A stretch of DNA of 64,000 nucleotides from a virus (IMGVR_UViG_3300044557_000151:59723-123722), one strand, 5' to 3'; shown: positions 15,819 through 56,356, counted from the first letter of the stretch. Notes: a model not told the origin generated them from the letters alone. Translations and numbers: made by a program.

Positions 15819-15836
15819 ATGAACCGCTTCTATTGT

Positions 15837-16065: not shown

Positions 16066-16096
16066 TTATATATTTATAAGAAGAGGAGGTTAAAGT

Positions 16097-16780: not shown

Positions 16781-16798
16781 TGAATTGCATTCGCTTTT

Positions 16799-16882: not shown

Positions 16883-17120
16883 TCGCCCCTCACTTCACGG
16901 TGGTGAGAGGCGTGAATCAATACTAGTCATGCGGTGTTGGTTCCTCCTTATATATGATATTCGTGCGACCGTCCTGAACGAAGGATTTAAGTCTTATTGC
17001 TTGAATCGGGTTTGAATCCCGACAGCCGCATTCCAGCAAACGTGTATGGCCGCGTGGCGGCGACGAGCGCTGGAATTTAGGTGTGGCACCCTTAACCACA
17101 CCACTCGTTATACTGAAGTG

Positions 17121-17344
17121 GGCAAGAAGACATGTTCTTTAAAGGACGTGATGAATTGCACGTATCTGCGTCAGCAGGTACAACAGCCTTGGTAGCGAAA
17201 ACCAAACTACCAACCTGAACTCAACGTTAAGGCGCGGAACGCGCCGTGGTCAATAACCGTAACCTCTGCATTGTTAGTTTAATGCTAATGGTGTAAGTCA
17301 GCGGTGTTCCCAGAAGCTCGGTCATTTATGACCGAGTAGTTCAC
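17121..17344 (+). mobile_element. ORF-less miniature IS200/IS605 derivative (left end + right end/omega-RNA scaffold)
   Basis: 17121..17160 is nearly identical to the left end of the full IS at 54477. 17245..17344 is nearly identical to the right end at 56190..56287 and ends in the same GAGTAGTTCAC. No ORF between the ends. Confidence 0.6.
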
Positions 17345-17348
17345 GAGT

Positions 17349-17421
17349 GCAACTGTAGCTCAGCGGTGGAGCGGCTGCTCAGAAGAGTAGAGTGTCGCTG
17401 GTTCGATTCCAGCCAGTTGTA
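17349..17421 (+). other. degenerate tRNA-like element (pseudo-tRNA, Phe-like loop CAGAAGA)
   Basis: Good acceptor stem, D-arm and T-arm (GCTGG-TTCGATT-CCAGC) are present. The anticodon stem cannot pair. Begins 4 nt after the mini-IS right end. Confidence 0.35.
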
Positions 17422-19732: not shown

Positions 19733-20036
19733 ACATTTCGAATTATATGTACGTCCTAATTGGCCTGATTGCCAAAAGACAATTGATTGGTTGGAAAAAC
19801 ATCATCAGCGATATACGGTTTCTGTCATTAATGTTAATGATGTGGATATGAAGCACCGCGAATGGAGTCTTAAGAAGATCAAAGAATTCAAGCAAAAAGG
19901 CTTGTGGAAATTGCCTGTAGTTAAGGCGAATAATGACAACTATATGGGAGAACGTGGTGTTCAAACATGGTGTGGTCTTGATTACAACAAGTTAAAAGCC
20001 AACGCGAAAACGGAAGGAGAACATCAGGTAGCGTGA
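19725..20036 (+). CDS. small thioredoxin-fold (glutaredoxin/NrdH-like) protein
   Basis: 103 aa. LYVRPNWPDCQKTIDWL resembles the N-terminal redox-motif region of NrdH/glutaredoxins. Weak call. Confidence 0.3.
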   Translation: MTKHFELYVRPNWPDCQKTIDWLEKHHQRYTVSVINVNDVDMKHREWSLKKIKEFKQKGLWKLPVVKANNDNYMGERGVQTWCGLDYNKLKANAKTEGEHQVA

Positions 20037-21247
20037 GATACAGTAGAGCGGTCCAAAAGGAACTCGCAAAGGCTTTTGGCGTTGATCGAATTTGGTCATA
20101 CAGCCGAATCAGCACTTTTGTGAATTGCCCTTGGGAATACAAAGTTAAATATATTGACCATGTAAGAGATGCTGGAAATGTCTATTCATTCTATGGGACT
20201 CAATGCCACAATATCATTCAAGGATTCTATGATGGGGTATATACCTACGATCAAATGTCCACTGAATATACCGATTTCGTTCGTCAATGGATGGATGACC
20301 AAGATCATTTCAATTTTCCGAAATCGAAAGATGGATCTGATAAGACCGAAAAGAGTTATATTAAGAATCTGACTCATTATTTCAAGAACACTCAAGTTGT
20401 TGATACTTCGAATGGAATTGAAATTCACAACGAAGAGCCAGTACTTGTTCAGATTCCTAAAGATGACAACCCGGCGGCGTTCGTTCTAGTGGGTTATATT
20501 GACTCGCTATATAAGGATGGCGACGATATCTACCTGTTAGACTACAAAACATCCTCGAAGAGTGGATTCACTGGAAAGAAGCTTATTGAACACTCGCAAC
20601 AATTGCGTCTATATTCAATCGGCATTCATCAACAGAAGGGCATTCCATACGACAAAATTAATCCTCGTTTTGACATGATGAAGTATGTGAAAATCCGGTT
20701 TAAGCAAGAAAATGGTAAGTGGAAGGAGACAATCCAGGAACGGGCATCTTGGGTATCGGGAATTGCCACCAAGCTAAAGACGAAGCTCAAGAAGGCAGGA
20801 CTTGGACCGCTTGAAATTCAACAAGCGATTGATCTTGCAGATGCCCATGGAAATCTGGATAACTTACCGGAATCCGTTCAGAAACAATTCGAAGTTGGCA
20901 ATTGCTATATTGACGTTGAAATCAACGAAGAGATCGCGGCAGAGACTCTCAAGAATCATGCCGACACCATTACTGAAATTATGCGTCGTGAAGCGTGTGA
21001 TCCAGCGACTTATCCAGAAGTGTTTGAACGCGATTTGGCACCATTCCAAAACTCGTTAATGTTTGGGCACATGGCTGAAGCACTCTCTAAGGAAACCATC
21101 GATTACACAGATGATGCTGGAAAGAAACAAGTGTCTAACGTTGTTGATTTAGTATCGTTATTCAAGCCACAGGGGGCAGACAATGGTAAAGAAAAACCAG
21201 AAGAGCCGGGGAACAGTCTTGAACGCCTCGGTTTACATGTATCATAA
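20033..21247 (+). CDS. PD-(D/E)XK family nuclease (RecB/Cas4-like fold)
   Basis: Core motif GYIDSLYKDGDDIYLLDYKTS carries the D...D/ExK catalytic triad of PD-(D/E)XK nucleases. Confidence 0.55.
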   Translation: MRYSRAVQKELAKAFGVDRIWSYSRISTFVNCPWEYKVKYIDHVRDAGNVYSFYGTQCHNIIQGFYDGVYTYDQMSTEYTDFVRQWMDDQDHFNFPKSKDGSDKTEKSYIKNLTHYFKNTQVVDTSNGIEIHNEEPVLVQIPKDDNPAAFVLVGYIDSLYKDGDDIYLLDYKTSSKSGFTGKKLIEHSQQLRLYSIGIHQQKGIPYDKINPRFDMMKYVKIRFKQENGKWKETIQERASWVSGIATKLKTKLKKAGLGPLEIQQAIDLADAHGNLDNLPESVQKQFEVGNCYIDVEINEEIAAETLKNHADTITEIMRREACDPATYPEVFERDLAPFQNSLMFGHMAEALSKETIDYTDDAGKKQVSNVVDLVSLFKPQGADNGKEKPEEPGNSLERLGLHVS

Positions 21248-21431
21248 AAATGAGAAAGAACCACAATTTATTGCTGCGTTGAATAAGAGCGAATTACACA
21301 GTCCAGACTTCAATCAATATGTCGCGGCAGTTACTGAAAAGTTTGGGAAGCAAATTTATGTTAAGATCGATAAAATTGAGTATGCGGTAACACCTCAAGC
21401 GAACGGTTGGTTGCTATATGACAAACACTAA
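21239..21431 (+). CDS. hypothetical small protein
   Basis: Frame of ORF 21183..21431. ATG at 21239. Overlaps the dnaE start. Confidence 0.3.
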
Positions 21432-24400
21432 TGTGTTTATTAACCTACACCAGCATACCGATTATTCTAACGGGTCTATGTTCGAAGTAGTTTCAACAAC
21501 GCAAGATTACATTGATTATGCTAAAGAGCATCAACTTCCGGCTGTGTGCATTACCAATCATGGGAATGTAGTTGGGTGGCTGAAGTCAAAACGTGCAATT
21601 GAAAAGGCCGGGCTGAAATACATTCATGGCATTGAAGCCTACGTTACGATGACCTTAGACGAAAAGATTAAAGATAGCTATCACACAATCTTAATTGCTA
21701 AGAATTATGAAGGTGTCAAAGAGATTAATCGCCTTTCATCTGGAGCATTCAATCGAGACGACAATCATTACTATTTCAAGCCACGCATCCTATTCGATGA
21801 TTTGGTAAAGACTAGCGATAATGTGATTGTAACTACAGCCTGCTTAGGCGGTGCAATTTGGCAGAGTATTAGCCATAACCAACCAGACGTCCTTACAAAA
21901 TGGCTTGAATTTGCTCAAGCAAACCCGGATCGTGTTTATCTTGAGGTCCAACCTCATATGGATGACGACCAAAAGGCGCTTAACAAAGCTCTGTTAGAAA
22001 TCGCAAAGACGTCTAGTTTAAAGCTGATTGCAAGTAACGATGTCCACGCCGCAACTCAAGAACACAATACCATTCGTCAAATCATTAAGAAGGGCAAAGG
22101 CATTGAGTATGAAGGTGATGACGCATTTGAATTATGGTCTAAAGACTACGATGAGATGTACGCCGGATTCAAAGCTCAAGGTGTTCTAAGCGACGAACAA
22201 ATCAATGACGCGTTAACTCAAACTGCCAAGATTGTACAACAGGTCGAAGAGTTTGAAGTTGACCGTACAGCCAAGTATCCTCACGTTTCTGATAATCCAG
22301 ATCAAGAGTTGCTAGACTCGATTCAGAAGGGCTATCACGAGCATGGTTTAGATCAGTTACCAATTGATGACCAGCAGGTTTACCTGCAACGCATTCAGCA
22401 CGAGGTTGAAACGTTCCGTCATAACGGAGCGGTCGAATACATGGTTTTGGACAACATGGTTGCCCAAGAGGCTCATCGTCAAGGTCGTCAGTTTGGATAC
22501 GGTCGTGGTTCCGCCGCCGGTTCGTTAGTTATGTTCCTAACTGGAGAAACTGCGGTTGATCCAATCAAATGGGGATTAAGCTTTGAGCGCTTCATGAACC
22601 CCGAACGAGTATCCCTAGCCGATGTGGACAGAGACTTCGAGAGTGTCGATCAACAGGCGATGCAGAGGTGGTTGGTTCACAACCCAAGCTTCCATTCAGC
22701 CGCAATCATGACTATTAATACTTTCGGACTCAAAAGCGCTATTCCAGCCTTGGCAAATGGTATGCCTGAATACGCCGGAAAGAAGTCTATGATCGAGTCC
22801 ATTAAGAGTTCGATTGCCGATGATGGTAGTTATGCACCCAAGCTTCGCGCCCAGAACGAAAAACTATTCCAATATGCTGAGGCGATTATGGGCGTGACCT
22901 CATCATTTGGTCGTCACGCAGCGGGCATTCTCGTTAGCTCAGATCAAATTGATGAGACTGTTGGCACAATGACGCTGAAGACTAGCACTAGTCCAGACGT
23001 GTATCTAACAACTCAACTCGATATGGGCGACATCGAATACATGAAGTATGTAAAGATGGACATCCTTGGTCTGGATAATGTCGGATTGATTAAGAAGGCG
23101 TGTGATTACGCAGGCTTACCATATTTGACACCAGAAAGTACGGACATCATCGATCCAGAAGATGAAGCCGTTTGGAATTCATTAACCGAAAGCACAATCG
23201 GGATCTTCCAATTTGAAGGCGAACGTGCTGAAAACTTCCTTCAGAAACTTTTCTCCAAGGAGACGATGGCAAAAATTAAGGCTGGAGACCCAGATATCAA
23301 GATGATGGATATGTTGTCTTTGGCAAACGCCGCAATGCGTCCAGCTGGGGCAAGTTATATCGAATCGTTAACTCGTGGTGAATTCTATGACAACGGTCAT
23401 CCAGCACTGAACAAGTTCCTTGGGAAAACAATGGGACGTTTAGTTTATCAAGAGAGTTTGATTGAGTTTTTGGAAAAGTTCTGCGGTTACACAGCAGGGA
23501 AGGCGGACATTATCAGAAGAGGTATAGGCCACAAGATTCCCGCTGTTATGAATGAAGAGGTCCCAAAAATCAAACCCGCGTTTGTAAAGACTATGGTTAA
23601 TAAATATGGTGATACGAAAGAGCACGCCGAATCGATTGCTGATGCTTTTATTCAAGTGTTCATGGACGCTGCCAACTATGGGTTCTCCGTCAACCATTCA
23701 ACACCATATTCGTGGATTGGTTACATCTCCGCTTGGTTGCGTTACTACTATCCAATTGAATTCATCACTGCTGGTCTTGAAATCTGGAAAGATAAGCCAG
23801 AAAAGACTAACAAGCTGATCCAGTACGCACAATCAAAGGGTATTACGATTCAGACTCCTAAGTTTCGTAAGTCTAAGGGGGCATACTTCTTTGACAAAGA
23901 AACTAACGTGATTTATCAAGGAACCGCCCCAATCAAGGAAAACAACGCACAAACCGGTGATACGCTGTACGAACTGAAAGACGACAAATTTAACACGTTC
24001 ACCGACTTTTTGTTAAAGATTACCGATAACGGGGTCGTCACCGATCACGGAGTTGGCTATGAATCATTTGAGTCAACGTTTAATCGCTATCAAGATAATG
24101 AAGACGCAATCAAAGACCTAGACAAGATGATTAGGGCTCAGGATATGTTTGTTGAATCAAATCCAATGTCGATTAATAAGAGTCAGATGGAAGGATTGAT
24201 TTCCATTGATTATTTCGCTGAGTTCGGTAAACGGGACAAGCTGATGAAGATTTATACGTATTTCCGAGACAATTATAAGAAGACTGCCAAGACGATGAAG
24301 ACAAAGTTTAAGAAGTATTGGATGATTCGTGACTTCGAATCGTCCTGTGCAGATGAGGACTTTTCATATAATCGGACTGTTCAGGCTGAGTTGTATTACT

Positions 24401-24711
24401 TCGGTGCCCCCGTATCAGTCGATAAGACTGTCCCTACGAACTATGCGTTTATTGTGGGCGTTGAAGCTAAGTCATATCGTGTAAAAGCAGCGTTGTATAT
24501 CCCATCAACTGGAGACACGGTTAACGTGCTAATGCGTGCCCGACTATATCGTGACGTTCCATTTGGTGTAGGCGATTTAATCAACATCAAGAGTCTAGCA
24601 TCTAAACCACGCAACGTAAATGTGGATGGAGAATGGGTGGCAAGTAAAACCGAAAGCGATGTTTGGCTTGAACACCTTGAAATCATCAAGAAAAAAGAAG
24701 GTAAAAAATGA
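21418..24711 (+). CDS. dnaE: DNA polymerase III alpha subunit (DnaE-type, PHP domain N-terminus)
   Basis: 1097 aa. N-terminal PHP motif INLHQHTDYS. GYGRGSAAGSLV polymerase core motif. HhH and OB regions follow. Confidence 0.9.
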   Translation: MTNTNVFINLHQHTDYSNGSMFEVVSTTQDYIDYAKEHQLPAVCITNHGNVVGWLKSKRAIEKAGLKYIHGIEAYVTMTLDEKIKDSYHTILIAKNYEGVKEINRLSSGAFNRDDNHYYFKPRILFDDLVKTSDNVIVTTACLGGAIWQSISHNQPDVLTKWLEFAQANPDRVYLEVQPHMDDDQKALNKALLEIAKTSSLKLIASNDVHAATQEHNTIRQIIKKGKGIEYEGDDAFELWSKDYDEMYAGFKAQGVLSDEQINDALTQTAKIVQQVEEFEVDRTAKYPHVSDNPDQELLDSIQKGYHEHGLDQLPIDDQQVYLQRIQHEVETFRHNGAVEYMVLDNMVAQEAHRQGRQFGYGRGSAAGSLVMFLTGETAVDPIKWGLSFERFMNPERVSLADVDRDFESVDQQAMQRWLVHNPSFHSAAIMTINTFGLKSAIPALANGMPEYAGKKSMIESIKSSIADDGSYAPKLRAQNEKLFQYAEAIMGVTSSFGRHAAGILVSSDQIDETVGTMTLKTSTSPDVYLTTQLDMGDIEYMKYVKMDILGLDNVGLIKKACDYAGLPYLTPESTDIIDPEDEAVWNSLTESTIGIFQFEGERAENFLQKLFSKETMAKIKAGDPDIKMMDMLSLANAAMRPAGASYIESLTRGEFYDNGHPALNKFLGKTMGRLVYQESLIEFLEKFCGYTAGKADIIRRGIGHKIPAVMNEEVPKIKPAFVKTMVNKYGDTKEHAESIADAFIQVFMDAANYGFSVNHSTPYSWIGYISAWLRYYYPIEFITAGLEIWKDKPEKTNKLIQYAQSKGITIQTPKFRKSKGAYFFDKETNVIYQGTAPIKENNAQTGDTLYELKDDKFNTFTDFLLKITDNGVVTDHGVGYESFESTFNRYQDNEDAIKDLDKMIRAQDMFVESNPMSINKSQMEGLISIDYFAEFGKRDKLMKIYTYFRDNYKKTAKTMKTKFKKYWMIRDFESSCADEDFSYNRTVQAELYYFGAPVSVDKTVPTNYAFIVGVEAKSYRVKAALYIPSTGDTVNVLMRARLYRDVPFGVGDLINIKSLASKPRNVNVDGEWVASKTESDVWLEHLEIIKKKEGKK

Positions 24712-25040
24712 ACTATACCGCAAAGGTAACACGCGTGTTATATCGCCAAGACGATGAGCTAACACGAAAGCTAATTAACGCATATGCAAATGTGCGTTGG
24801 TTGGAATCAGAAAAGCGCGATCAAAAACACGAAGTCCGTATGACGTTTGATGCGATGGTAAGACGTGTGTTGGATACCAACCAAGTCGTTATTGTCCAAG
24901 TATTGAAGGATGAAGATGATAATCAACTGTTGCGCTTCATCGAATTTGACATCGTCAACGAAGGTCACGTTTATGAGATTGCGTCTTTAGACGTTCAGGA
25001 TGGATTACCAAATGTTGGTGTGTTAGAGGTGGAGGATTAA
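24708..25040 (+). CDS. hypothetical protein
   Basis: ORF track 110 aa. ATGA overlap with dnaE. Confidence 0.45.
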   Translation: MNYTAKVTRVLYRQDDELTRKLINAYANVRWLESEKRDQKHEVRMTFDAMVRRVLDTNQVVIVQVLKDEDDNQLLRFIEFDIVNEGHVYEIASLDVQDGLPNVGVLEVED

Positions 25041-25819
25041 TGGCAATGAAAATGATGACAACGAAGACATTTCAAAAGAAAATCGATGATAAATACAATC
25101 ACAAGTTTTTACTCATTGATGATGAATCTGAGACAATTCCTGTAAAAGCAGTCAGAAAACTGTACTGTAGATCGTGCGGGTTAGTCCAGGAATTTCAAGT
25201 TAGGAGATTACTTGTAAAAGAGTATGAGTGCCCGAAGTGTAGACGTAATGAGGCTTTGAGCGGGTGGAACAATCAGAATGATTATTGGCGCACCGTAAAA
25301 GATTATGAAGGGGTGTATGAAGTTTCTCGAAGGGGTGAGGTGCGAACACTTCCTCGGTTACTTAGAAGTAGAAATGGAACACTTTCGTTTGAATCGTCAA
25401 AAATGCTCGTACCAAATCCTGGGAGACGAGGATATCTAAGATATGTTTTATCGATGAGCGGAAAAACCACGCTTCGTTCGGCACACAGAATGGTCGCGGA
25501 TGCGTTTATTCCAAACCCACATAACCTTCCGCAAGTTAACCATATCGACGAGAATAAGACCAACAATTGTGTTGAGAATCTGGAATGGTGTTCAGCCAAA
25601 TATAATTGCAACTTCGGCACAAGAATTGCAAGAATTTCTAAAAACCGTAGAATGTATCGTAATATCATTGCGGTAGATACAGATGGGAATAAAACGAGTT
25701 TTGAAAACGTAAAGGATTTTTGCAAAAAGACAGGAGCAAACAGTTCTTGGGCTCGCGAATGTTTATTGAAGAAGACCGGTACGTGCCGGGGTTATAAACT
25801 TATGATTGGAGTTAATTAA
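25040..25819 (+). CDS. HNH homing endonuclease with N-terminal zinc finger
   Basis: YEGVYEVSRRGEV (NUMOD4 motif) and VNHIDENKTNNCVENLEW (HNH motif). N-terminal CRSCG...CPKC. Confidence 0.7.
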   Translation: MAMKMMTTKTFQKKIDDKYNHKFLLIDDESETIPVKAVRKLYCRSCGLVQEFQVRRLLVKEYECPKCRRNEALSGWNNQNDYWRTVKDYEGVYEVSRRGEVRTLPRLLRSRNGTLSFESSKMLVPNPGRRGYLRYVLSMSGKTTLRSAHRMVADAFIPNPHNLPQVNHIDENKTNNCVENLEWCSAKYNCNFGTRIARISKNRRMYRNIIAVDTDGNKTSFENVKDFCKKTGANSSWARECLLKKTGTCRGYKLMIGVN

Positions 25820-26400
25820 TGGCGAAATTTATATATCGTTATGCCGCGATGTCGGCTGGCAAGTCCTTAGATCTATTGAAAGTTGCGCATAATTACAAGG
25901 ATCAAGGACGAGAAGTCCTGCTAATGACTCCGGCAATTGACACGCGCAATGGTGAAGGGGTTATCAGCAGCCGCGTTGGATTACAATCAAAAGCAATCGC
26001 GTTATCTGTAGAGGATTCACCAGTAAAGATGTTGAATGCTCTAAATAATCCATTACCGGATTGCATCCTTGTTGATGAGGCACAATTCCTGACGAGCGCA
26101 CAAGTAGATGACTTCGCCTGGATTGTTGATTTTTTGAACATTCCGGTGATTTGCTACGGACTTAGAACTGATTTTCAAGGCAATCTTTTTGAGGGCAGTC
26201 AAGCGCTAATGTGTTTAGCTGACAGCATTGAAGAAATCAAAACAATCTGCGCTAAATGCAATCATAAGGCAATTATGAACCTTCGAACCGTAAATGGGAA
26301 ACCAGTTACTGAAGGAGATCAAATTGTCATTGGCGATACCGAATATATCAGCCTTTGTCGCAAACATTGGAAAGAAGCTACAAATTCTTTGCCATTTTAG
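25819..26400 (+). CDS. tdk: thymidine kinase
   Basis: P-loop AAMSAGKS. C-terminal zinc ribbon CAKCNHKAIMNLR...LCRKHW. Typical 193-aa Tdk. Confidence 0.9.
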   Translation: MAKFIYRYAAMSAGKSLDLLKVAHNYKDQGREVLLMTPAIDTRNGEGVISSRVGLQSKAIALSVEDSPVKMLNALNNPLPDCILVDEAQFLTSAQVDDFAWIVDFLNIPVICYGLRTDFQGNLFEGSQALMCLADSIEEIKTICAKCNHKAIMNLRTVNGKPVTEGDQIVIGDTEYISLCRKHWKEATNSLPF

Positions 26401-26401
26401 G

Positions 26402-26464
26402 TAGACAAACACTAATGCGTTTAGTATACTAATACTCGTAAGTTAAACAAACACTAATGTGTTT
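26402..26464 (+). promoter_or_regulatory. promoter-operator unit
   Basis: TAGACA-N17-TATACT at 26402..26430. Second palindrome copy AAACACTAATGTGTTT at 26449..26464. Confidence 0.6.
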
Positions 26465-26579
26465 ATTGGAGGGTGCTAGTCGAGAAAACTCGTTACTTTA
26501 GTGACGAGATGAATCAACGTATTGGGCAATCACCGGTGTAGTGTTCTAATAGCGTACCATAGGGTACACGGGAAAGGAG

Positions 26580-27731
26580 ATGATAAATATTGTTTTAAAA
26601 GGCATTAAACTAAGAATATACCCTAGCAAAGAGCAACAGCTAAGTATAAAGCTTAACTTTGGATATAACCGATTTGTTTGGAATCAGATGCTGGGTATGT
26701 TACAAGAAAGATATGCTAATAACCCTAAGCTATCTTTTCCTAGCGCCTTTACTTTAAATAACTTGTTACCAACAATGAAGATAGAATATTCTTGGCTTAA
26801 CGATGCTGAAAGTCGTAGCTTACAAATAACCTGTAAAAACTTAGTTGATGCTTACAAGAAGTTCTTTAAGACCCATAAGGGGTTTCCTAAGTTTAAATCA
26901 AAGAAGTATCCTAAGCAAAGCTACCAAACAAATTCTACAATAAAGCTAAAGGCCAACGAAGTTAAGTTTCCGAAATTAGGCTATATGAAGTTTAAAGGTA
27001 GTAGCAAAAAACTAAATGAGATTACTAAGATTAAGCTAGGAACTATTAAACTTACACCTACTGGTAAATACTATCTTGTACTGATTGCAGAGTGTGAAAA
27101 CCAAGCACTCCCTAAATCAGGAAATCAAGTAGGTATTGATATGGGGTTAGCTGATTTGATGATTACTAGTGACGGTGTAAAGTATCCTACTTTAAGATTT
27201 GACAAGATACTAGCTAAGAAAAAACGTTACTGGGAAAAGCGTTTAGCTCGTAGACGACTTCAAGCTCAAAAAGAGATTGCTTGGGATAAGCATAATAAGG
27301 TATTAAATCCTAGGGAACTTTCCAACTTTAAAAACTATCAGAAAGCAAAGCTAATGGTTGCTAAGTATTCAGAAAAAATAGCTAACCAGCGTAAAAACTA
27401 CCTTCATATGCTTTCAAAACAGCTTGTATCACAATATGATGTGATTAAGATAGAAGATTTGAAAACCAAGAATCTTCTTAAGAATCATAAGTTATCTAGA
27501 GCAATAGCTAATGCAAGTTGGAAAGAACTTAGAAGACAACTAGAGTACAAGTGCTTATGGTATGGGAAACAGTTAGTCACTGTGAACCCTAGAAAAACCT
27601 CACAAATATGTTCTAGTTGTGGCTATGATGACGGTAAGCATACCTTAGATATTAGAGAGTGGACATGTCCCAAGTGTGGTGTTCACCACGACAGGGACAT
27701 TAACGCGGCTATCAATATCTTAAATGCTTAA
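26580..27731 (+). CDS. tnpB: TnpB RNA-guided endonuclease
   Basis: N-terminal KLRIYPSKEQ...FGYNRFVWNQ. RuvC-I GIDMG and RuvC-II IEDLKTK. C-terminal CSSCG...CPKCG zinc finger followed by RuvC-III DRDINAAINIL. Confidence 0.9.
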   Translation: MINIVLKGIKLRIYPSKEQQLSIKLNFGYNRFVWNQMLGMLQERYANNPKLSFPSAFTLNNLLPTMKIEYSWLNDAESRSLQITCKNLVDAYKKFFKTHKGFPKFKSKKYPKQSYQTNSTIKLKANEVKFPKLGYMKFKGSSKKLNEITKIKLGTIKLTPTGKYYLVLIAECENQALPKSGNQVGIDMGLADLMITSDGVKYPTLRFDKILAKKKRYWEKRLARRRLQAQKEIAWDKHNKVLNPRELSNFKNYQKAKLMVAKYSEKIANQRKNYLHMLSKQLVSQYDVIKIEDLKTKNLLKNHKLSRAIANASWKELRRQLEYKCLWYGKQLVTVNPRKTSQICSSCGYDDGKHTLDIREWTCPKCGVHHDRDINAAINILNA

Positions 27732-27854
27732 ATGACTAGTGTGGGCTGGAACAGCCCTTAGTAAATAGTCGTAACCGCTACACCTCATTCAACGAATGAA
27801 GTGCAAGTCAGCGATGTTCCTAGAAGCTCGGTCATTCATGGCCGAGTAGTTCAC
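27732..27854 (+). ncRNA. putative omega-RNA scaffold / IS right end
   Basis: Structured segment 3' of tnpB with hairpins. Conserved with the other two right-end copies (GTTCC-AGAAGCTCGGTCATTCATGGCCGAGTAGTTCAC). Confidence 0.45.
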
Positions 27855-28015
27855 TCAGCAGTCCATCATTCATTCAAAATCTTACCTTTGACCTTATGAA
27901 TGATGGCTACTATGTTCACTACTTTGGAATTCAAGGTGAAGTTGGGATTCCATTCTCTGTCGGCGGTAAGCGGGGCGTTAAATTTAGCGTCTCAAGTATG
28001 GTTTAGGAGGCTATC

Positions 28016-28204
28016 ATGAGGATTCGAGATTTCTTGGATTATGTGATTGGTAAGAACGTGAGTGAAGATGCTGAATTAAATGTCATCAATAAATCTGGTG
28101 AGATGGAAAAGGCTAAATTCATTATTGACGGGGAGAATGGCGAAAAGATTGCATTCTATCCTTGCTCCTTTGCTACATATGAACAACAAAAAGGGGAACT
28201 ATGA
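28016..28204 (+). CDS. hypothetical protein
   Basis: ORF track 62 aa. RBS GGAGG upstream. Confidence 0.35.
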   Translation: MRIRDFLDYVIGKNVSEDAELNVINKSGEMEKAKFIIDGENGEKIAFYPCSFATYEQQKGEL

Positions 28205-28359
28205 AACCTAAACGTAAGCACTACGGTCATGGTACGAAACGATACGACAAACAAAAATTAGCCAAGCTTGTTGATCGTGTGTCAAAAGAAGATAAGAAAG
28301 AGATTGCCCCAATCAAACGCTGGCGTTTGTGGTGGCGCATGGTTGAGGGGAAATATTAA
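28201..28359 (+). CDS. hypothetical small basic protein
   Basis: 52-aa ORF not in the track (below 60 aa). ATGA overlap upstream and TAATG overlap downstream, so it fits the gene chain. Confidence 0.3.
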   Translation: MKPKRKHYGHGTKRYDKQKLAKLVDRVSKEDKKEIAPIKRWRLWWRMVEGKY

Positions 28360-28634
28360 TGATTAGCAAACAGAAACTTCAAGAGCAGGCCGATCGTATT
28401 CGAAATAACCGAATCAAAAGTATGCAACAACGAATTGAAACCCGAATGGTGAATGCTTTGGCGGAAGATCGAAAATCAATCGTTATCTACCGAAAAGAAG
28501 ACTCCGATTTATATACCGCGCTCAGCTTAGGGCTCATCTCATCAGACCCATATCGTATGGAACCATGCCTCAAGAATGGTAACGATGGACTCGTAATTTA
28601 TTTCGACTTGGATGGTGAAGACGATGGAAACTAG
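28359..28634 (+). CDS. hypothetical protein
   Basis: ORF track 91 aa. Confidence 0.4.
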   Translation: MISKQKLQEQADRIRNNRIKSMQQRIETRMVNALAEDRKSIVIYRKEDSDLYTALSLGLISSDPYRMEPCLKNGNDGLVIYFDLDGEDDGN

Positions 28635-28941
28635 CGCGACTCTATTAGAAAAAACGATTAGCGGAATTGAATCTGATTATCGCGAAGGGATTAAAGAGTT
28701 GATGATCATCTTAAGCGATGCTGCACGAGTGCACGCGACTCGGGAGACGATTATCTTTGCAGAGGAATCGGTATCTGACTTTCCACATGCGATTGACTTC
28801 CTGAAAAGTCGGTGTGCAGAACAATATCTAGGATATTACGGATACAGGTTCTATCAAGAAAACGATTGGGTAAAGAAGCACTTCTGGAACATTGCACAGC
28901 CAATCCATGTTGGGTGCACCATTAGTTGGCCGGTTGAGTAG
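28621..28941 (+). CDS. hypothetical protein
   Basis: Frame of ORF 28612. ATG at 28621. Confidence 0.4.
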   Translation, partial: TMETSATLLEKTISGIESDYREGIKELMIILSDAARVHATRETIIFAEESVSDFPHAIDFLKSRCAEQYLGYYGYRFYQENDWVKKHFWNIAQPIHVGCTISWPVE

Positions 28942-28973
28942 TTTATAATATTGAGATTTTAGGAGGCGCCACG

Positions 28974-29282
28974 GTGAGTACATCAAGTATGCCAAGCACA
29001 CAAACTGGGATTATGGAATTAGCTGATGCGTATTTGCGCGAACGCTATCGTTTAAAGAGTCTGCACAAAAAGCCAAGTGATTTGAACATGTTCCAGTGGA
29101 CGCGCAAATGCCTATGCGTTACTCAAAAACAAATGGCGGACATATTGAATGTCTCTGTGGCCTCTCTCAAGGCTTATGAGTATGGGAGCCGAAATCCAGG
29201 GGAAGACGCATGGAAACGTCTCTCGGACGTCACCCACATGTCAGTTGCGGATTTATTAGAACTGGAAAACAAGAATCGGTAA
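28974..29282 (+). CDS. XRE-family helix-turn-helix protein
   Basis: VTQKQMADILNVSVASLKAYEYGSRNP is a canonical HTH_XRE segment. Lies 30 bp upstream of the second tnpB. Confidence 0.6.
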   Translation: MSTSSMPSTQTGIMELADAYLRERYRLKSLHKKPSDLNMFQWTRKCLCVTQKQMADILNVSVASLKAYEYGSRNPGEDAWKRLSDVTHMSVADLLELENKNR

Positions 29283-29311
29283 AAGTTTGATTTTGTAAAG
29301 GAGGTGAGGCC

Positions 29312-30448
29312 GTGGATACCTATCAAGCATACAAAGTCCGTATCTATCCCACTCAATTACAAGCTGATATGATTATGCAATTTATCGGAAATAGTCGATT
29401 CGTGTATAACCAAATGCTTGCCATGCAGGCTGATCGTTACAAGAACGGCGGAAGGTACGTTGGATACATGGCAATGTCCAACCTAGTCAAACCACTCAAA
29501 CAAGAGTACGCATTCCTCAAGCTGTCACCATCTCAATCGCTACAACAGGCGTGTGCGGATTTGAACGCCGCTTTCCAGAACTTCTTTGCTAAGCGCGCAG
29601 ACTATCCACGGTTCCACTCCCGAAAAGGTGCGAAGCAATCTATGCGGGTCATGCAGGCTTGTTCCATCATCGCTTCGGGAGTCAAGCTGCCAAAGCTCGG
29701 TATCATGCGTTTCCGTTATGGATATAGTCTCGACCCGTCACTTAAAATTCGGCAAGTGACCGTCTCGTACACCTCATCTCACAAGTTTTACGCCAGCATC
29801 TTAGTTAAATGCGAAAAACAAGCATTGTCTAAAACTGGTGAACAAGTGGGATTGGATATGGGCGTGGCTGACTTAGCTATCCAGAGCAATGGCAAGAAAA
29901 TTCCAACTCAGAAGCATGACGAGCTGGAACACTCTCTTCACATTTGGCAACGTAAGTTGGCTCGCCGTAGGGAGTTAGCCAAGGCGGAAATCGCTAAATC
30001 CAAGCACTATGACCACACTGAATTGACGCTTGATGACTTCTCCAATTACAACAAGGCGAAAATAATGGTTGCTAAGTTGCATGAGAAGATTGCTAACAGG
30101 CGGAAGGATTACCTACACAAGACGACAACCAAATTGGTGCGGGAATATGACCTTATCGCTATGGAAGATTTGAGGACCAAGAATATGGTCAAGAATCACC
30201 ATTTGGCGAAGTCAATTACCAATCAAGGCTGGAACATGTTTAAAACCATGCTTCAGTACAAGTGCGAGTGGTATGGGAAGACAATAGTGGTGGTAAACCC
30301 GCGGAATACCAGTCGCGTATGTTCTGATTGTGGTGTGGATAGCGGCAAGAAACCACTAGATGTGCGGGAATGGACGTGTCCAGGATGTGGTACATGGCAT
30401 GATCGTGATGTGAATGCAGCACAAAACATTTTGAAATTAGCAGTGTAA
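29312..30448 (+). CDS. tnpB: TnpB RNA-guided endonuclease
   Basis: KVRIYPTQLQ...GNSRFVYNQ. RuvC-I GLDMG, RuvC-II MEDLRTK. Zinc finger CSDCG...CPGCG. RuvC-III DRDVNAAQNIL. Confidence 0.9.
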   Translation: MDTYQAYKVRIYPTQLQADMIMQFIGNSRFVYNQMLAMQADRYKNGGRYVGYMAMSNLVKPLKQEYAFLKLSPSQSLQQACADLNAAFQNFFAKRADYPRFHSRKGAKQSMRVMQACSIIASGVKLPKLGIMRFRYGYSLDPSLKIRQVTVSYTSSHKFYASILVKCEKQALSKTGEQVGLDMGVADLAIQSNGKKIPTQKHDELEHSLHIWQRKLARRRELAKAEIAKSKHYDHTELTLDDFSNYNKAKIMVAKLHEKIANRRKDYLHKTTTKLVREYDLIAMEDLRTKNMVKNHHLAKSITNQGWNMFKTMLQYKCEWYGKTIVVVNPRNTSRVCSDCGVDSGKKPLDVREWTCPGCGTWHDRDVNAAQNILKLAV

Positions 30449-30568
30449 CTGATAAACAAGGGCAGGGACTGTCCGTGGTAATAGAGTCGAACCTCTTGAG
30501 GTGCTCATGTGTAACACACAAAGTTCGATGCTCCCAGAAGCCTGTCATTTTAATGACGGGTGGTTCAC
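30449..30568 (+). ncRNA. putative omega-RNA scaffold / IS right end of the second tnpB element
   Basis: Hairpin-rich segment ending in GGTGGTTCAC. Architecture parallels the other right ends (CCCAGAAGC + hairpin + GTTCAC). Confidence 0.45.
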
Positions 30569-30616
30569 TTCCGCTACGTTGGGTATGACGTCAAAGATCA
30601 TTATAACGCTTTGGGC

Positions 30617-30808
30617 GAAGTAGACGGTTACGTCATCTCATGGAATAACGAAAAGGGACGGTAGATAATGAAATTTGAACCATATCAACATGTACAACGT
30701 ATGGGCGTTGACGAAGTAGACGGTTACGTCATCTCATGGAATAACGAAAAGGGACGGTAGATAATGAAATTTGAACCATATCAACATGTACAACGTATGG
30801 GCGTTGAC
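30617..30808 (+). repeat. perfect 96-bp tandem duplication spanning RBS and start of the RNA ligase gene
   Basis: 30617..30712 equals 30713..30808 exactly. A 12-bp junction GAAGTAGACGGT recurs at 30809. Copy 1 creates a decoy 30-codon ORF (30668..30760). Confidence 0.9.
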
Positions 30809-31696
30809 GAAGTAGACGGTATCCTGGATGGTAATGTTGTCATTCAACCGAAGATTGATGGAACAAACGCATCAATCTGGTTAGACCAAAATGGAACCTT
30901 GGGATTTGGAAGTCGTCGGCGAAAGCTGACTTTAGAAAAGGACAACGCGGGGTTCATGACCTTCTTCACCTCTGAAATGGCTCAAGGCGACGCCGCCAAA
31001 TTACAAGAGTATCTCGAAGATAACCCAGATTACACCATTTACGGCGAATGGTTAGTCCAACATGTCGTTCATTACAAAGATAACGTTTACCATCAACTGT
31101 TCATTTTCGACGTCTACGACAATGCGAATGAACGATATCTCAACATCGAAGAATATCAAGATGACCTTCAAGAGTTGGGCATGTCGTATGTGGTTGTGAT
31201 CCCGGCGATTTACAAAGGTAAAGCAACAAACGAGATGATTGTAAAGCTCGCTAAGGATAACCACTATCTTCTGGAAAAAGACCAGGTCGGTGAAGGCGTT
31301 GTAGTTAAACGATATGACTTCGTGAATCGATATGGGCGTACCACTTGGGGTAAATACGTGCTTGCAGATTTCAAGAAGCGCAAACATGATGGACGTAATT
31401 ACTCTCAGGATGTTGATGGTATTGGGAACAGTTATGCAGAACCTATTGCTAAATTCATTACACCAGCGTTTGTCGAAAAAGAGTTCATTAAGTTTAAAGA
31501 GCGATTGGATCACCCGTTTAGTGGAAAAGATATTCCGGCATTGCTAGGGACCGTGTATCACGAATTTGTTTCAGAAGAGACGTGGCATTTCTTGAAAGAA
31601 CTTGGGAAGAGTCCGGTTGTCAACTTTGGAACTGTACAGCGCGAATCGTACAAACAAATTAAGCGGTGTTTGCCTGTCTTATTCGGCCAAGCATAG
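30764..31696 (+). CDS. ATP-dependent RNA ligase-like nucleotidyltransferase
   Basis: Motif I KIDGTNA (ligase/capping-enzyme lysine adenylyltransferase). 310 aa. RtcB lies nearby. Confidence 0.5.
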   Translation: MKFEPYQHVQRMGVDEVDGILDGNVVIQPKIDGTNASIWLDQNGTLGFGSRRRKLTLEKDNAGFMTFFTSEMAQGDAAKLQEYLEDNPDYTIYGEWLVQHVVHYKDNVYHQLFIFDVYDNANERYLNIEEYQDDLQELGMSYVVVIPAIYKGKATNEMIVKLAKDNHYLLEKDQVGEGVVVKRYDFVNRYGRTTWGKYVLADFKKRKHDGRNYSQDVDGIGNSYAEPIAKFITPAFVEKEFIKFKERLDHPFSGKDIPALLGTVYHEFVSEETWHFLKELGKSPVVNFGTVQRESYKQIKRCLPVLFGQA

Positions 31697-54462: not shown

Positions 54463-54575
54463 TTTTATCATGTGCAGGAAAGAAGACACGTTCTTTAAAG
54501 GACGTGATGAATTGCCTTCTTTTTAGCGCCAAAGGCGCTACACATGGTACGAAATCGTGTGGTATAATAAGCTAT

Positions 54576-55019
54576 ATGAAAGACACTAATAGACTTACGT
54601 ATGGTAGAACTTCTGTCTACAATCTAAATTACCACATCATCTGGGGAACTAAATACCGTAACCGGGTTCTGAAAGGAAATGTTGAGGTTACGCTCAAGCA
54701 AATTATGTATGAAATCGCAGAGCAATATGGTTTTAGCATCGACCACATGGAAATTGGTCAGGATGACCATATTCACTTGCTGGTGAGTGCACCGCCAAAA
54801 CTATCAGTTACCAATATTGTGCGATGGCTAAAAGGCATTTCAGCGCGCCAGCTATTCGTCGCGTGTCCGGAGCTACAGCGAAGTTACTGGAAACATGCAG
54901 GACGCCACTTATGGTCGCCCAGTTATTACGTAGAAAGTATTGGCACAACTAATCAGAATGCAGTCGCTAAGTACATTGATGACCAAAGGTTGAAGGAGGT
55001 GAAGATTAATGACAATTAA
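54576..55019 (+). CDS. tnpA: IS200-like Y1 (HUH) transposase TnpA
   Basis: YHIIWGTKYR and HIHLLVSAPP (HuH) motifs plus a downstream Tyr. ATG 54576 (track frame from 54504). Confidence 0.85.
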   Translation: MKDTNRLTYGRTSVYNLNYHIIWGTKYRNRVLKGNVEVTLKQIMYEIAEQYGFSIDHMEIGQDDHIHLLVSAPPKLSVTNIVRWLKGISARQLFVACPELQRSYWKHAGRHLWSPSYYVESIGTTNQNAVAKYIDDQRLKEVKINDN

Positions 55020-56148
55020 AGCTTATAAACTTAGGATCTACCCAAATGAGGCTCAAAAGCTTCAAATGGAAAAGAACTTTGGTATGTGTCGATTTGTATG
55101 GAACCAGCTTCTCGCTATGCAGAATGCGCGCTACAAGAACGGTGGTGACTACGTCAACGAGTTTGGCATGAATTACCTATTTAAGCCCCTGAAAAAAGAA
55201 TACCAATGGCTTAAAGAAGCAGACTCAACCAGCTTAATAGCTGTGAGCCACAATCTGCACTTAGCATTTAAAAACTTTTTCAAAAAGCATGAAGGGTATC
55301 CGAAGTTTAAGACTAAGCGGTTCACCCGCCCTGCATATCGTTCTAACGCAGTTAACCACAATATCGTTCTTATGGACGAGCAACATATTCGGCTGCCAAA
55401 ACTTGGATCAATAGCATTTCGATCTGGACAGTTACCAAGGGGTAAAGTTAAAACTGCAACAGTTACTAGAAGTCCCGCTGGTAAATACTATGTACTTGTG
55501 ACTACGGAAGTCGAAATAGAGAAATGGAACCCAACAGGCGCTAGTGTCGGCTTGGATATGGGAGTCGCTGACCTTGTAATCACTAGTGATGGTATGAAGT
55601 TTGCGACCAAACGGTTTGATAAAGCTCTTGCCAAAAAGAAACACTACTGGGAGAAACGATTGGCCCGTAGGCGCGCCTTAGCTCAAAAAGAAATTGCCTG
55701 GGATAAACACCTCAAGGTAGAATCGCCACGTCAGTTATCTGACTTCAAGAATTACATGAAGGCTAAAGAAATGGTGGCGAAATACAGTGAAAAAGTGTCT
55801 AATCAACGTCACGATTACCTTCAAAAGATCAGTACTGAGCTCGTTTCAGAATATGATGTGATTAAATTAGAAGACCTGAAAACCAAGGGCCTGATGAAGA
55901 ATCACAAACTGTCACGAGCAATTGCAAATCAGTCGTGGCGTGAATTACGTCTGATGTTGGAATACAAAGCAGCTTGGTATGGTAAGAGTATCATTGCCGT
56001 GTCTCCGTATAAGACCTCACAACGTTGTTCAGTATGTGGCTACGATGATGGCAAACATGAGCTAGATATCCGCGAATGGACTTGCCCACAATGCCATACT
56101 CATCACGATCGTGACATAAATGCCGCAAAGAACATTCTAGTCGCATAA
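55009..56148 (+). CDS. tnpB: TnpB RNA-guided endonuclease
   Basis: KLRIYPNEAQ...FGMCRFVWNQ. RuvC-I GLDMG, RuvC-II LEDLKTK. Zinc finger CSVCG...CPQCH. RuvC-III DRDINAAKNIL. Confidence 0.9.
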   Translation: MTIKAYKLRIYPNEAQKLQMEKNFGMCRFVWNQLLAMQNARYKNGGDYVNEFGMNYLFKPLKKEYQWLKEADSTSLIAVSHNLHLAFKNFFKKHEGYPKFKTKRFTRPAYRSNAVNHNIVLMDEQHIRLPKLGSIAFRSGQLPRGKVKTATVTRSPAGKYYVLVTTEVEIEKWNPTGASVGLDMGVADLVITSDGMKFATKRFDKALAKKKHYWEKRLARRRALAQKEIAWDKHLKVESPRQLSDFKNYMKAKEMVAKYSEKVSNQRHDYLQKISTELVSEYDVIKLEDLKTKGLMKNHKLSRAIANQSWRELRLMLEYKAAWYGKSIIAVSPYKTSQRCSVCGYDDGKHELDIREWTCPQCHTHHDRDINAAKNILVA

Positions 56149-56287
56149 AAAGCAAAGACCCAAATGGTCTATCGGCACGGGACGTGCCTTGGCTAATAAC
56201 CGTAACCTCTGCATTGTTAGTTTAATGCTAATGGTGTAAGTCGGCGGCGTTCCCAGAAGCTCGGTCATTCATGGCCGAGTAGTTCAC
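56149..56287 (+). ncRNA. putative omega-RNA scaffold / IS right end
   Basis: Nearly identical to 17245..17344. Hairpins GGCACGGGACGTGCC and CTCGGTCATTCATGGCCGAG. Confidence 0.45.
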
Positions 56288-56298
56288 GAATTCAATAG

Positions 56299-56356
56299 TA
56301 GACAAACACTAATGTGTTTGGTATACTATTAGACGTAGACAAATACTAATGTGTTT
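56299..56356 (+). promoter_or_regulatory. promoter-operator unit
   Basis: TAGACA-N17-TATACT at 56299..56327. Second palindrome copy AAATACTAATGTGTTT at 56341..56356. Confidence 0.6.

What the first reader, a model, noticed from the sequence alone, without database searches (positions are those of the whole stretch)
26470..30568. Three intact TnpB nucleases in one phage-like replication region, two of them TnpA-less, each with its own right-end/omega-RNA segment
tnpB at 26580, 29312 and 55009 all retain RuvC-I/II/III residues and the CxxC...CxxC finger, so they look catalytically competent rather than domesticated repressor-like forms. Only the third has a cognate IS200-type tnpA. The first two are standalone and diverged from each other, with different right-end sequences. 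Dense TnpB carriage in a virus-like genome suggests the elements persist by RNA-guided homing during phage replication, when many genome copies coexist. The first element sits directly downstream of a strong phage promoter (26402), so its tnpB and omega-RNA would be transcribed from it.
Basis: partly seen in the sequence, partly recalled or inferred. Interest (0 to 1): 0.6.

Follow-up and report, generated by a model that had tools for sequence, protein, structure and literature searches.

The report
TnpB insertion elements in a phage
A new large phage carries four IS200/IS605-type selfish elements, three of them with intact RNA-guided TnpB nucleases. Near-identical sibling phages lack them and still hold the exact target sites, so homing between co-infecting phages is plausible and testable but not shown.

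Summary
Three full-length TnpB genes (26580-27731, 29312-30448, 55009-56148) keep the RuvC D/E/D residues and the zinc finger. Only the third has a Y1 tnpA. Each is followed by a right end that stops exactly at GTTCAC (27854, 30568, 56287) and encodes an omega-RNA scaffold with strong covariation across 48 homologs.

Three corrections. The right ends are homologous, not different. A fourth, protein-less mini element (17112-17344) was missed. Element 2 has lost its whole left end, and element 1 has lost its native target-adjacent motif (TAM).

Sibling phages with 96-99% identical flanks lack element 1, 2 or 3. For elements 1 and 2 they carry intact small genes with a YTAT motif followed by the guide-matching sequence (17/20 and 20/20 bases). 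The insertions are therefore genuine and polymorphic, and each was followed by a deletion on its left flank.

These are ordinary IS200/IS605 members. TnpB is common in phages, and homing between co-infecting phages has already been proposed in the literature. Homing here fits the evidence but is untested. Moderate interest.

The parts
17107..17111 (+). TAM-like GTTAT immediately 5' of the mini element (element 4)
   Evidence: Homology to siblings L192/L193, which lack the element, ends at 17113. Multi-copy relatives show T(T/C)TAT or GTTAT at this position.
17112..17344 (+). Element 4: a protein-less mini element (PATE-like). Left-end hairpin at 17131-17150, then ATGAAT. Omega-RNA scaffold at 17229-17344.
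   Evidence: nhmmer right-end profile 91.9 bits. Sequence read. Left end is 97% identical to the element 3 left end over 36 nt. All 34 of 34 consensus pairs form.
17345..17364 (+). Would-be guide of the element 4 omega-RNA. It overlaps the 5' end of an atypical tRNA (17348-17422).
26402..26430 (+). Phage promoter-like motif TAGACA-17-TATACT with an internal palindrome AAACAC-N4-GTGTTT. A second palindrome copy lies at 26449-26464.
   Evidence: The same motif is conserved upstream of the intact 101-aa gene in element-free siblings.
26474..26579 (+). Left end of element 1. Hairpin at 26489-26508, then ATGAAT at 26509-14. The native TAM and the 5' half of the interrupted gene are deleted. The junction lies at 26473|26474, just after the gene's RBS GGAGGG.
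26580..27731 (+). tnpB of element 1 (383 aa). D187, E292, D373. CxxC at 344 and 363.
27741..27854 (+). Right end and omega-RNA scaffold of element 1, ending in GTTCAC
   Evidence: 33 of 34 consensus pairs form.
27855..27874 (+). Guide region of element 1. It is also the start of the surviving 3' half (27855-28006) of a 101-aa phage gene.
   Evidence: Empty allele in L184-L187 reads CATTAT|TCAGCAGTCCATCATTCgTT.
29298..29303 (+). Deletion junction of element 2. An AAGGAG is shared by the RBS of the interrupted phage gene and the RBS of tnpB. No left end remains.
   Evidence: L168 is 100% identical up to 29303. Homology to element 2 relatives starts at about 29280-29300. No left-end profile hit.
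29312..30448 (+). tnpB of element 2 (378 aa, GTG start). D182, E285, D366. CxxC at 337 and 356.
30458..30568 (+). Right end and omega-RNA scaffold of element 2, ending in GTTCAC
30569..30664 (+). Guide region of element 2 (first 20 nt) and the surviving 31 C-terminal codons plus stop of a 107/108-aa phage gene
   Evidence: Empty allele in L168 reads CTTCTAT|TTCCGCTACGTTGGGTATGA, 20 of 20. L185 reads TTTTAC|...GGtTATGA.
54464..54468 (+). TAM TTTAT of element 3
54469..54575 (+). Left end of element 3. Hairpin at 54487-54506, then ATGAAT.
54504..55019 (+). tnpA, a Y1 HUH transposase. The likely start is ATG 54576. It overlaps tnpB by 11 nt.
   Evidence: Pfam Y1_Tnp E 5.8e-38 over the full profile. 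HIH and YY motifs are readable in the translation.
55009..56148 (+). tnpB of element 3 (379 aa). D183, E288, D369. CxxC at 340 and 359.
56173..56287 (+). Right end and omega-RNA scaffold of element 3
56288..56307 (+). Guide region of element 3. It runs into the -35 box of the promoter motif at 56299.

Best explanation
The window is part of a roughly 124-kb uncultured, virulent-type phage. Its replication genes are only about 37% identical to any catalogued phage. Its TnpB elements are closest to those of Lactobacillaceae and their phages.

The phage carries four IS200/IS605-family elements of one subfamily:
- Element 3 is autonomous: TAM TTTAT, left end, tnpA, tnpB, right end.
- Element 4 is a 233-bp mini element with a left end and a right end/omega-RNA only.
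- Elements 1 and 2 are stranded tnpB plus omega-RNA cassettes.

Shown by sequence: elements 1 and 2 entered small phage genes immediately 3' of a YTAT motif, as this family does. A deletion then removed the 5' part of the interrupted gene together with the TAM. For element 2 it also removed the entire left end. Each tnpB now sits right behind the phage gene's ribosome-binding site and promoter, and TnpA can no longer excise it at the normal site.

Inferred: each tnpB transcript yields an omega-RNA whose scaffold is the right end and whose guide is the next 16-20 nt of phage DNA. The TnpB-omega-RNA complex would cut any genome that has YTAT followed by that sequence, which is the element-free allele carried by sibling phages. 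The carrier genome is immune because GTTCAC, not a TAM, precedes the guide match. During mixed infection the break would be repaired from the element-bearing genome, copying the cassette. This is homing of the free-standing homing-endonuclease type. Element 3's TnpA could also move element 3 and the mini element.
For: Identity of the parts:
- Pfam domains and full-length alignment to ISDra2 TnpB with the catalytic residues kept.
- Right ends end sharply at GTTCAC in 48 homologs.
- Omega-RNA scaffold: 34 pairs, 96.2% of cells paired, 21 pairs with changes on both sides. Covariation score 0.551, against 0.176 in shuffles and 0.06-0.11 in slid controls.
- TAM and left-end hairpin defined from multi-copy bacterial relatives.

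Genuine, polymorphic insertions:
- L184-L187 lack element 1 and have an intact 101-aa gene holding ATTAT plus 17 of 20 guide bases.
- L168 lacks element 2 and has an intact 108-aa gene holding TCTAT plus 20 of 20 guide bases.
- L190/L191 lack element 3, while L188/L189 have it.
- Siblings carry other TnpB elements at sites that are empty in the window.

Other support:
- No guide has a TAM-flanked match elsewhere in the window.
- TnpB genes that lack a left end in phages are under purifying selection, dN/dS 0.07-0.13.
- A separate assembly matches at 100% across the junctions.
- The mechanism follows published TnpB homing (PMC10055086) and the proposed non-restorative homing in co-infecting phages (PMC13565253).
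Against: - There is no expression, cleavage or gene-conversion evidence.
- The guide-to-target match is a by-product of insertion, not independent evidence.
- The TAM is inferred from flanks only, and it varies (TTTAT, TCTAT, GTTAT, ATTAT).
- The element-3-free allele has TTTTT/TTTAA rather than TTTAT and differs at guide position 1, so it may not be cleavable.
- L185 carries TTTAC at the element 2 site.
- The low dN/dS may reflect selection while the genes still sat in bacterial elements, before capture by phages.
- The left-flank deletions could simply be compensation for genome size.
Confidence: 0.6

Rival explanations
1. Passive passengers. The elements jumped in from host chromosomes during infection, and two were then crippled by deletions. 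They persist only through linkage and drift. TnpB does nothing useful for them inside the phage.
For: Elements 1 and 2 have lost the TAM or left end. This TnpB family is abundant in Lactobacillaceae genomes and forms a large phage protein family annotated only as transposase. Presence or absence among siblings is also what recent neutral insertions would show.
Against: In every left-end-less copy the truncation stops short of tnpB: at or near its ribosome-binding site or start codon in element 2, Lbab1 and Lb338-1, and within the left end in element 1. The ORF, the catalytic residues and the complete omega-RNA are always kept. dN/dS is 0.07-0.13 among such copies. A virulent phage under packaging limits would be expected to lose 1.3 kb of inert DNA.
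Confidence: 0.25
2. Interference weapon rather than homing. The phage keeps the cassettes because the nuclease destroys co-infecting sibling genomes that carry the uninterrupted allele. This would give a competitive advantage without necessarily copying the element.
For: Target-bearing siblings exist. One sibling has a synonymous TAT-to-TAC change that removes the TAM at the element 2 site, which is what an escape mutation would look like. Intron and free-standing endonucleases in phages act this way (PMC11620839; PMC13565253).
Against: The flanks are 96-99% identical, so repair by recombination (homing) would be efficient and hard to separate from killing. The TAM-loss case is a single observation.
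Confidence: 0.1
3. Domesticated, nuclease-dead TnpB derivatives that act as RNA-guided repressors of phage or host promoters (TldR-like).
For: Element 3's guide overlaps the -35 box of a phage promoter. Phage-encoded TldR proteins exist (10.1101/2023.11.30.569447).
Against: All three keep D/E/D and a full C-terminal RuvC and zinc-finger region. Each guide is simply the insertion flank and is not preceded by a TAM in this genome.
Confidence: 0.03
4. Assembly chimera that joined host insertion-sequence DNA to a phage contig.
For: Contigs from other assemblies break inside or next to the repeated right ends.
Against: L004 and L195 reproduce both junctions of elements 1 and 2 at 100% identity. Element 3 is in the same context in two other samples. 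The junctions fall exactly at the family's TAM and right-end boundaries when compared with the empty alleles.
Confidence: 0.02

Closest known systems
ISDra2 (IS200/IS605 family) TnpB-omega-RNA system of Deinococcus radiodurans
   Same: Same domain order and full-length alignment at E 1e-57 to 1e-61. RuvC D/E/D and the zinc finger are kept. The omega-RNA is encoded by the tnpB 3' end and the right end, with the guide taken from the flank. Insertion is 3' of a 4-5 nt TAM. tnpA is a Y1 HUH transposase (element 3).
   Different: Roughly 30-35% identity, judged by eye from the alignments. The inferred TAM is T(T/C)TAT or YTAT rather than TTGAT. The right end finishes in GTTCAC. The elements sit in a phage. 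Two copies lack tnpA and the TAM or left end.
'Transposase' genes of Lactobacillaceae phages Lbab1, Lb338-1, CL1, LP65, Iacchus/Dionysus/Semele and 521B
   Same: Same TnpB subfamily. Element 1 is 83-86% identical in DNA and 89% in protein to the Lbab1 and Lb338-1 copies. The right end/omega-RNA is homologous. Several copies per phage genome had already been noted (PMC6669764). The Lbab1, Lb338-1 and Iacchus copies also lack a detectable left end.
   Different: The host phage backbone is unrelated. Those genes were annotated only as transposases, without ends, TAM or guides. CL1 carries a complete tnpA-tnpB element.
Free-standing homing endonuclease genes of T4-like phages (seg and mob genes; intronless homing)
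   Same: A nuclease gene lies between conserved phage genes and is present or absent among close relatives. The target lies in the allele that lacks it. The carrier allele is protected by sequence difference. This phage also carries HNH genes (25040-25819 and 16097-16780) that siblings lack.
   Different: The target is read by an RNA guide plus a TAM, not by protein. The origin is a transposon. Homing is inferred here, not shown.
PATE / mini IS200/IS605 elements that encode an omega-RNA to be used in trans (Meers et al. 2023, PMC10055086)
   Same: Element 4 has a left end and a right end/omega-RNA but no ORF, and its scaffold nearly matches that of a resident TnpB element (element 3).
   Different: It is located in a phage tRNA cluster, and its guide overlaps a tRNA 5' end. 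Similar minis of 252-255 bp occur in two other viral contigs.

Membership tests
IS200/IS605 insertion sequences | Y1 HUH transposase TnpA | tested here: met
   Element 3 only: Pfam Y1_Tnp at E 5.8e-38 over the full profile. No other tnpA is in the window, so elements 1, 2 and 4 are non-autonomous.
IS200/IS605 insertion sequences | Subterminal hairpins at both the left and right ends, and no terminal inverted repeats | tested here: inconclusive
   Met for elements 1, 3 and 4: left-end hairpin plus ATGAAT, and a right-end hairpin. Not met for element 2, which has no left end. Element 2 is a truncated derivative, not a complete member.
IS200/IS605 insertion sequences | Insertion 3' of a short conserved motif (TAM), without target-site duplication | tested here: met
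   Empty alleles read CATTAT|guide for element 1 and CTTCTAT|guide for element 2. TTTAT and GTTAT are retained at elements 3 and 4. No duplication is seen at the junctions.
TnpB (OMEGA) RNA-guided nucleases | RuvC-I/II/III catalytic D, E, D and a CxxC...CxxC zinc finger | tested here: met
   Aligned to D191/E278/D361 of the solved ISDra2 TnpB for all three proteins.
TnpB (OMEGA) RNA-guided nucleases | Structured omega-RNA encoded at the tnpB 3' end and right end, with the guide read from the flank | tested here: met
   Covariation on 48 homologs: 96.2% of cells paired, 21 of 34 pairs with double changes, controls far lower. The four window copies form 28-34 of the 34 pairs. No Rfam family matched. 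Transcription and processing were not tested.
TnpB (OMEGA) RNA-guided nucleases | TAM-dependent, guide-dependent cleavage of double-stranded DNA | not testable with these tools
   Needs a TAM-depletion or plasmid-interference assay.
TldR-like domesticated TnpB repressors | Inactivated or truncated RuvC domain | tested here: not met
   The catalytic triad and C-terminal region are intact in all three.
Free-standing homing endonuclease genes (functional class) | Presence or absence among close relatives, with the recognition site in the allele that lacks the gene | tested here: met
   Elements 1 and 2. Element 3 is polymorphic, but the empty allele lacks the TAM.
Free-standing homing endonuclease genes (functional class) | Biased inheritance or gene conversion in mixed infection | not testable with these tools
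   Needs co-infection experiments or population read data.
PATE-type mini IS200/IS605 elements | Left and right ends of a resident element family enclosing no protein-coding gene | tested here: met
   17112-17344. Left end is 97% identical to the element 3 left end over 36 nt. Right-end profile 91.9 bits. The only ORF of at least 40 aa listed anywhere near it (17046-17195, 49 aa) starts upstream of the element and merely overlaps its left end.

The most novel reading that the evidence does not exclude
In virulent Lactobacillaceae phages, tnpB plus omega-RNA cassettes that have lost tnpA, the TAM and the left end are no longer transposons. They would be free-standing RNA-guided homing endonuclease genes. 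They would cut the uninterrupted allele of co-infecting sibling phages and be copied in by recombination, or would exclude those siblings. The recurrent deletions, which stop short of tnpB, would lock the cassette in place and put it under phage expression signals. This would be a natural intermediate between a transposon nuclease and a phage-owned RNA-guided weapon.
Probability: 0.35. Interest if true: 0.7.

Novelty: new member of a known kind. Interest (0 to 1): 0.45.

Why it matters
TnpB homing has been shown for bacterial chromosomes and plasmids, but for co-infecting phages it has so far only been proposed. This locus supplies a concrete natural case for testing it.

- Sibling phage genomes with 96-99% identical flanks either carry or lack each cassette.
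- The predicted TAM and target are defined for elements 1 and 2.
- Two cassettes can no longer transpose, so any spread would have to come from homing.
- A cultured phage pair, Lbab1 and Lb338-1, shows the same presence/absence at one locus and could be used for experiments.

The work also gives ends, a TAM and an omega-RNA model to a family of Lactobacillus-phage 'transposases' that had been annotated without them. If homing is not confirmed, the finding is an ordinary set of insertion sequences in a new phage.

Tried and rejected
- Rfam: nothing matched at gathering thresholds on the whole window, and nothing useful at permissive E-values on 27600-27900.
- IMG/VR scan with the thymidine kinase found no relatives.
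- Exact look-ups of the RNA ligase and of P0001 found nothing.
- I first took TTTAT at 26462-26466 as element 1's native TAM (after). The element-free siblings show it belongs to the phage operator. The real insertion site was CATTAT inside a 101-aa gene whose 5' half is now deleted.
- I considered TTTAT at 29252-29256 as element 2's TAM, and an in-frame fusion of the HTH gene (28974-29282) with the 31-codon right-flank remnant. Both were rejected once L168 and L185 showed the remnant belongs to a separate 107/108-aa gene.
- A search for a degenerate left end upstream of element 2, by alignment with its closest relatives, gave nothing convincing.
- The relatives of element 2 (L165-L167) share no flanking genes with the window.
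- PHROGs gave no function for the interrupted genes.
- Structure prediction was not run. Alignments to solved TnpB structures at E below 1e-57 already settle the fold and the catalytic residues.

Full report
**1. What is there.** The window reads as one strand of a large phage genome. All long ORFs are on the + strand, with steady positive GC skew. It encodes a DnaB-like helicase, primase, DnaE-type polymerase, thymidine kinase, RNA ligase and a RecD-like helicase. It also has a cluster of tRNAs with a tmRNA. The polymerase is at most 37% identical to any catalogued phage, and megablast of 24000-33000 hits known phages only at element 1. The backbone is therefore new. The same genome occurs as a 123,722-bp JGI contig and in a Logan assembly of SRR16378546.

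**2. The three TnpB genes.** ORFs 26580-27731, 29312-30448 and 55009-56148 each carry the three TnpB Pfam domains. Each aligns over its full length with the solved ISDra2 TnpB at E 1e-57 to 1e-61. The residues aligned with D191, E278 and D361 are conserved, as are both CxxC pairs. The proteins are 46-58% identical to each other, so they represent three separate acquisitions within one subfamily. Only the third is preceded by a Y1 transposase gene, and no other tnpA or TnpB fragment is in the window.

**3. Right ends and omega-RNA.** All three genes are followed by 110-140 nt that align with each other and with copies in Lactobacillaceae phages and bacteria. In 48 non-identical homologs the similarity ends abruptly after GTTCAC (rarely GTTCAT). 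This fixes the right boundaries at 27854, 30568 and 56287.

RNAalifold predicts six helices. On the alignment 96.2% of cells pair and 21 of 34 pairs show compensatory double changes. The covariation score is 0.551, against 0.176 for shuffles and 0.06-0.11 for slid partners. The terminal hairpin could also be conserved as a DNA structure for TnpA. The long-range and internal helices, however, are what an omega-RNA scaffold would require.

Elements 1 and 3 share 38 of their last 39 bases, and element 2 is a homolog with compensatory changes in its hairpin. Rfam has no matching family.

**4. A fourth element.** A profile of the right end found a fourth copy at 17229-17344. Reading the sequence shows a left end at 17112 onward that nearly matches the element 3 left end. 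About 70 nt further on lies a full omega-RNA scaffold, with no protein-coding gene inside the element; the only nearby ORF of at least 40 aa (17046-17195, 49 aa) starts upstream and merely overlaps the left end. This is a PATE-like mini element in the tRNA cluster. Its would-be guide overlaps the 5' end of an atypical tRNA. Meers et al. already proposed that such minis supply omega-RNAs used in trans (PMC10055086).

**5. Left ends and TAM.** Multi-copy relatives in Levilactobacillus, Secundilactobacillus and other genera show where similarity between copies begins. The order is a T(T/C)TAT (sometimes GTTAT) motif, then 18-22 nt, then a 5-bp hairpin, then ATGAAT. Element 3 has this complete (TAM 54464-54468). 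Element 4 has GTTAT at 17107-17111. Element 1 has the hairpin and ATGAAT at 26489-26514. Element 2 has none of it.

**6. Uninterrupted sites in sibling phages.** Exact-protein look-ups and one metagenome scan recovered sibling phages whose flanks are 96-99% identical.

- **Element 1.** L184-L187 lack it. Between the thymidine kinase gene and the next small genes they carry an intact 101-aa gene behind the same promoter/operator motif. Inside that gene is CATTAT|TCAGCAGTCCATCATTCGTT, which matches 17 of the first 20 guide bases. In the window, homology stops at 26473, just after the gene's ribosome-binding site, and resumes at 27855. The element therefore inserted 3' of TTAT. A deletion of about 157 nt then removed the gene's 5' half, the TAM and at most a few bases of the left-end tip.
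- **Element 2.** L168 lacks it and has an intact 108-aa gene with CTTCTAT|TTCCGCTACGTTGGGTATGA, 20 of 20 bases. In the window, everything from that gene's ribosome-binding site to just before the tnpB start is gone. The junction lies in an AAGGAG shared by the two ribosome-binding sites (29298-29303). Another sibling, L185, has TTTTAC at the same place. This synonymous change removes the TAM. L185 also has one mismatch in the target.
- **Element 3.** It is present at the same site in L188 and L189 and absent from L190 and L191. Those two carry a 45-nt terminator-like segment instead, and their site reads TTTTTTAA-ATTCAATAG, which lacks TTTAT.
- **Element 4.** L192 and L193 lack it. Left homology ends at the TAM, and the right flank differs.

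Siblings also carry other TnpB genes at sites that are empty in the window. The lineage is therefore polymorphic for at least six TnpB-type insertions.

**7. Not an artefact.** Logan contigs L004 and L195 are 100% identical to the window over 19819-27680 and 27825-30645. Together they cover both junctions of elements 1 and 2. The element 3 junctions recur in two other samples.

**8. Expression context.** The site at 26402 is the best promoter-like match in the region. It is one of five copies of a 29-nt motif, with none expected by chance. Each copy has a palindromic operator-like core that is repeated about 40 nt downstream. No terminator-like site lies between it and tnpB of element 1. Element 2's tnpB took over the position and ribosome-binding site of the gene it disrupted. 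Co-transcription with phage genes is therefore plausible, but it is untested.

**9. How it most likely works.** The anatomy is that of IS200/IS605 elements with TnpB and omega-RNA. The published mechanism is that TnpB, guided by the flank-derived part of the omega-RNA, cuts the TAM-flanked element-free site, and recombination with an element-bearing copy restores or spreads the element (PMC10055086).

In this phage each guide matches only its own flank, and there it is preceded by GTTCAC rather than a TAM. The carrier should therefore be immune. The sibling alleles for elements 1 and 2 have a YTAT motif plus the target.

Because elements 1 and 2 can no longer be excised normally, the only way left for them to gain copies is homing into, or exclusion of, element-free siblings. 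This is the behaviour of free-standing homing endonuclease genes, and this phage also has two of the HNH type that siblings lack. A 2026 review explicitly lists 'transposon non-restorative homing' into co-infecting phages as a possibility (PMC13565253).

Other left-end-less phage copies of the same subfamily (Lbab1, Lb338-1, L165/L166) show dN/dS of 0.07-0.13. A left end is detectable in 28 of 31 bacterial copies but only 17 of 24 phage copies. These numbers are small and not independent.

None of this shows activity. The guide-target match follows automatically from insertion, and the low dN/dS may date from before capture by phages.

**10. Comparison and novelty.** The elements are ordinary members of IS200/IS605. 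Element 3 is complete, element 1 lacks tnpA and its TAM, element 2 is 5'-truncated, and element 4 is a PATE-like mini. TnpB is frequent in phages: 104 relatives were confirmed in IMG/VR and it forms a large PHROG. Several copies per genome were noted years ago in Lactobacillus phages as 'transposases' (PMC6669764). A cyanophage TnpB has also been discussed in the literature.

What this analysis adds is the ends, TAM and omega-RNA model for this subfamily, the fourth element, and the natural filled and empty alleles with their left-flank deletions.

I rate it a new member of a known kind, of moderate interest, because it makes phage-to-phage TnpB homing concretely testable.

Noticed in passing
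window 17112-17344: A protein-less mini IS200/IS605 element with a complete omega-RNA scaffold sits in the tRNA cluster, directly abutting an atypical tRNA. Similar minis of 252-255 bp occur in viral contigs L091 and L146. A solo right end occurs in Lactobacillus phage 3-521.
   Followed up: yes
window 17348-17422: ARAGORN calls a tRNA of undetermined identity with a two-base 'anticodon' (a six-base loop by eye). Rfam scores it 46.5 bits. The sibling L192 has a different tRNA-like sequence at this place.
   Followed up: partly
window 18081-18436: Phage-encoded tmRNA (Rfam 112.9 bits; tag peptide AKQNDLVAA) within a cluster of six or seven tRNA genes at 15836-18564.
   Followed up: no
window 30616-30820: A perfect tandem duplication (period 96, 2.1 copies) starts 48 nt after the right end of element 2. 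It duplicates the end of the truncated gene and the start of the RNA ligase gene. The sibling L168 has a single copy. The repeat is bounded by a 12-nt microhomology, GAAGTAGACGGT. A Logan contig breaks inside it.
   Followed up: partly
window 25040-25819 and 16097-16780: Two NUMOD4/HNH_3 endonuclease genes are absent from near-identical siblings. L184/L185 join 25046 to 25855, and L192/L193 join 16067 to 16795. This is free-standing homing-endonuclease polymorphism in the same phage.
   Followed up: partly
window 15756, 26402, 39802, 50462, 56299: A 29-nt promoter-like motif with a palindromic core AAACAC-TAAT-GTGTTT, each followed about 40 nt later by a second copy of the palindrome and often by a hairpin. 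It is probably a phage-specific promoter/operator set.
   Followed up: partly
window ~59412; L190 7172-8704; L184 8440-9708: Sibling phages carry further TnpB-type genes (390 aa at the 3' end of the RecD-like helicase gene; 422 aa between small genes) at sites that are empty in the window.
   Followed up: partly
window 29262-29282 vs L185 4868-5173: The window lacks an 87-aa gene present in L185 and L168. The deletion fuses the end of the HTH gene to that gene's stop codon. L185 also has 155-, 108- and 67-aa genes that are missing from the window between 28941 and 28974.
   Followed up: partly
L001 (Lbab1) 1442-1485 and 2758-2801; L196 (Lb338-1) 1190-1233: The Lbab1 gp117 TnpB cassette is 89% identical in protein to element 1 and has no left end. 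It is flanked by a 44-bp direct repeat of the target. Lb338-1 has the empty site, where ATTCAC rather than YTAT precedes the guide match. This suggests capture by a route other than normal transposition.
   Followed up: partly
L185 5420-5450 vs L168 540-570: At the element 2 target, one element-free sibling has TTC TAT (TAM present) and another has TTT TAC (TAM absent). The change is synonymous. It could be an escape mutation or plain drift, and it is a single observation.
   Followed up: no
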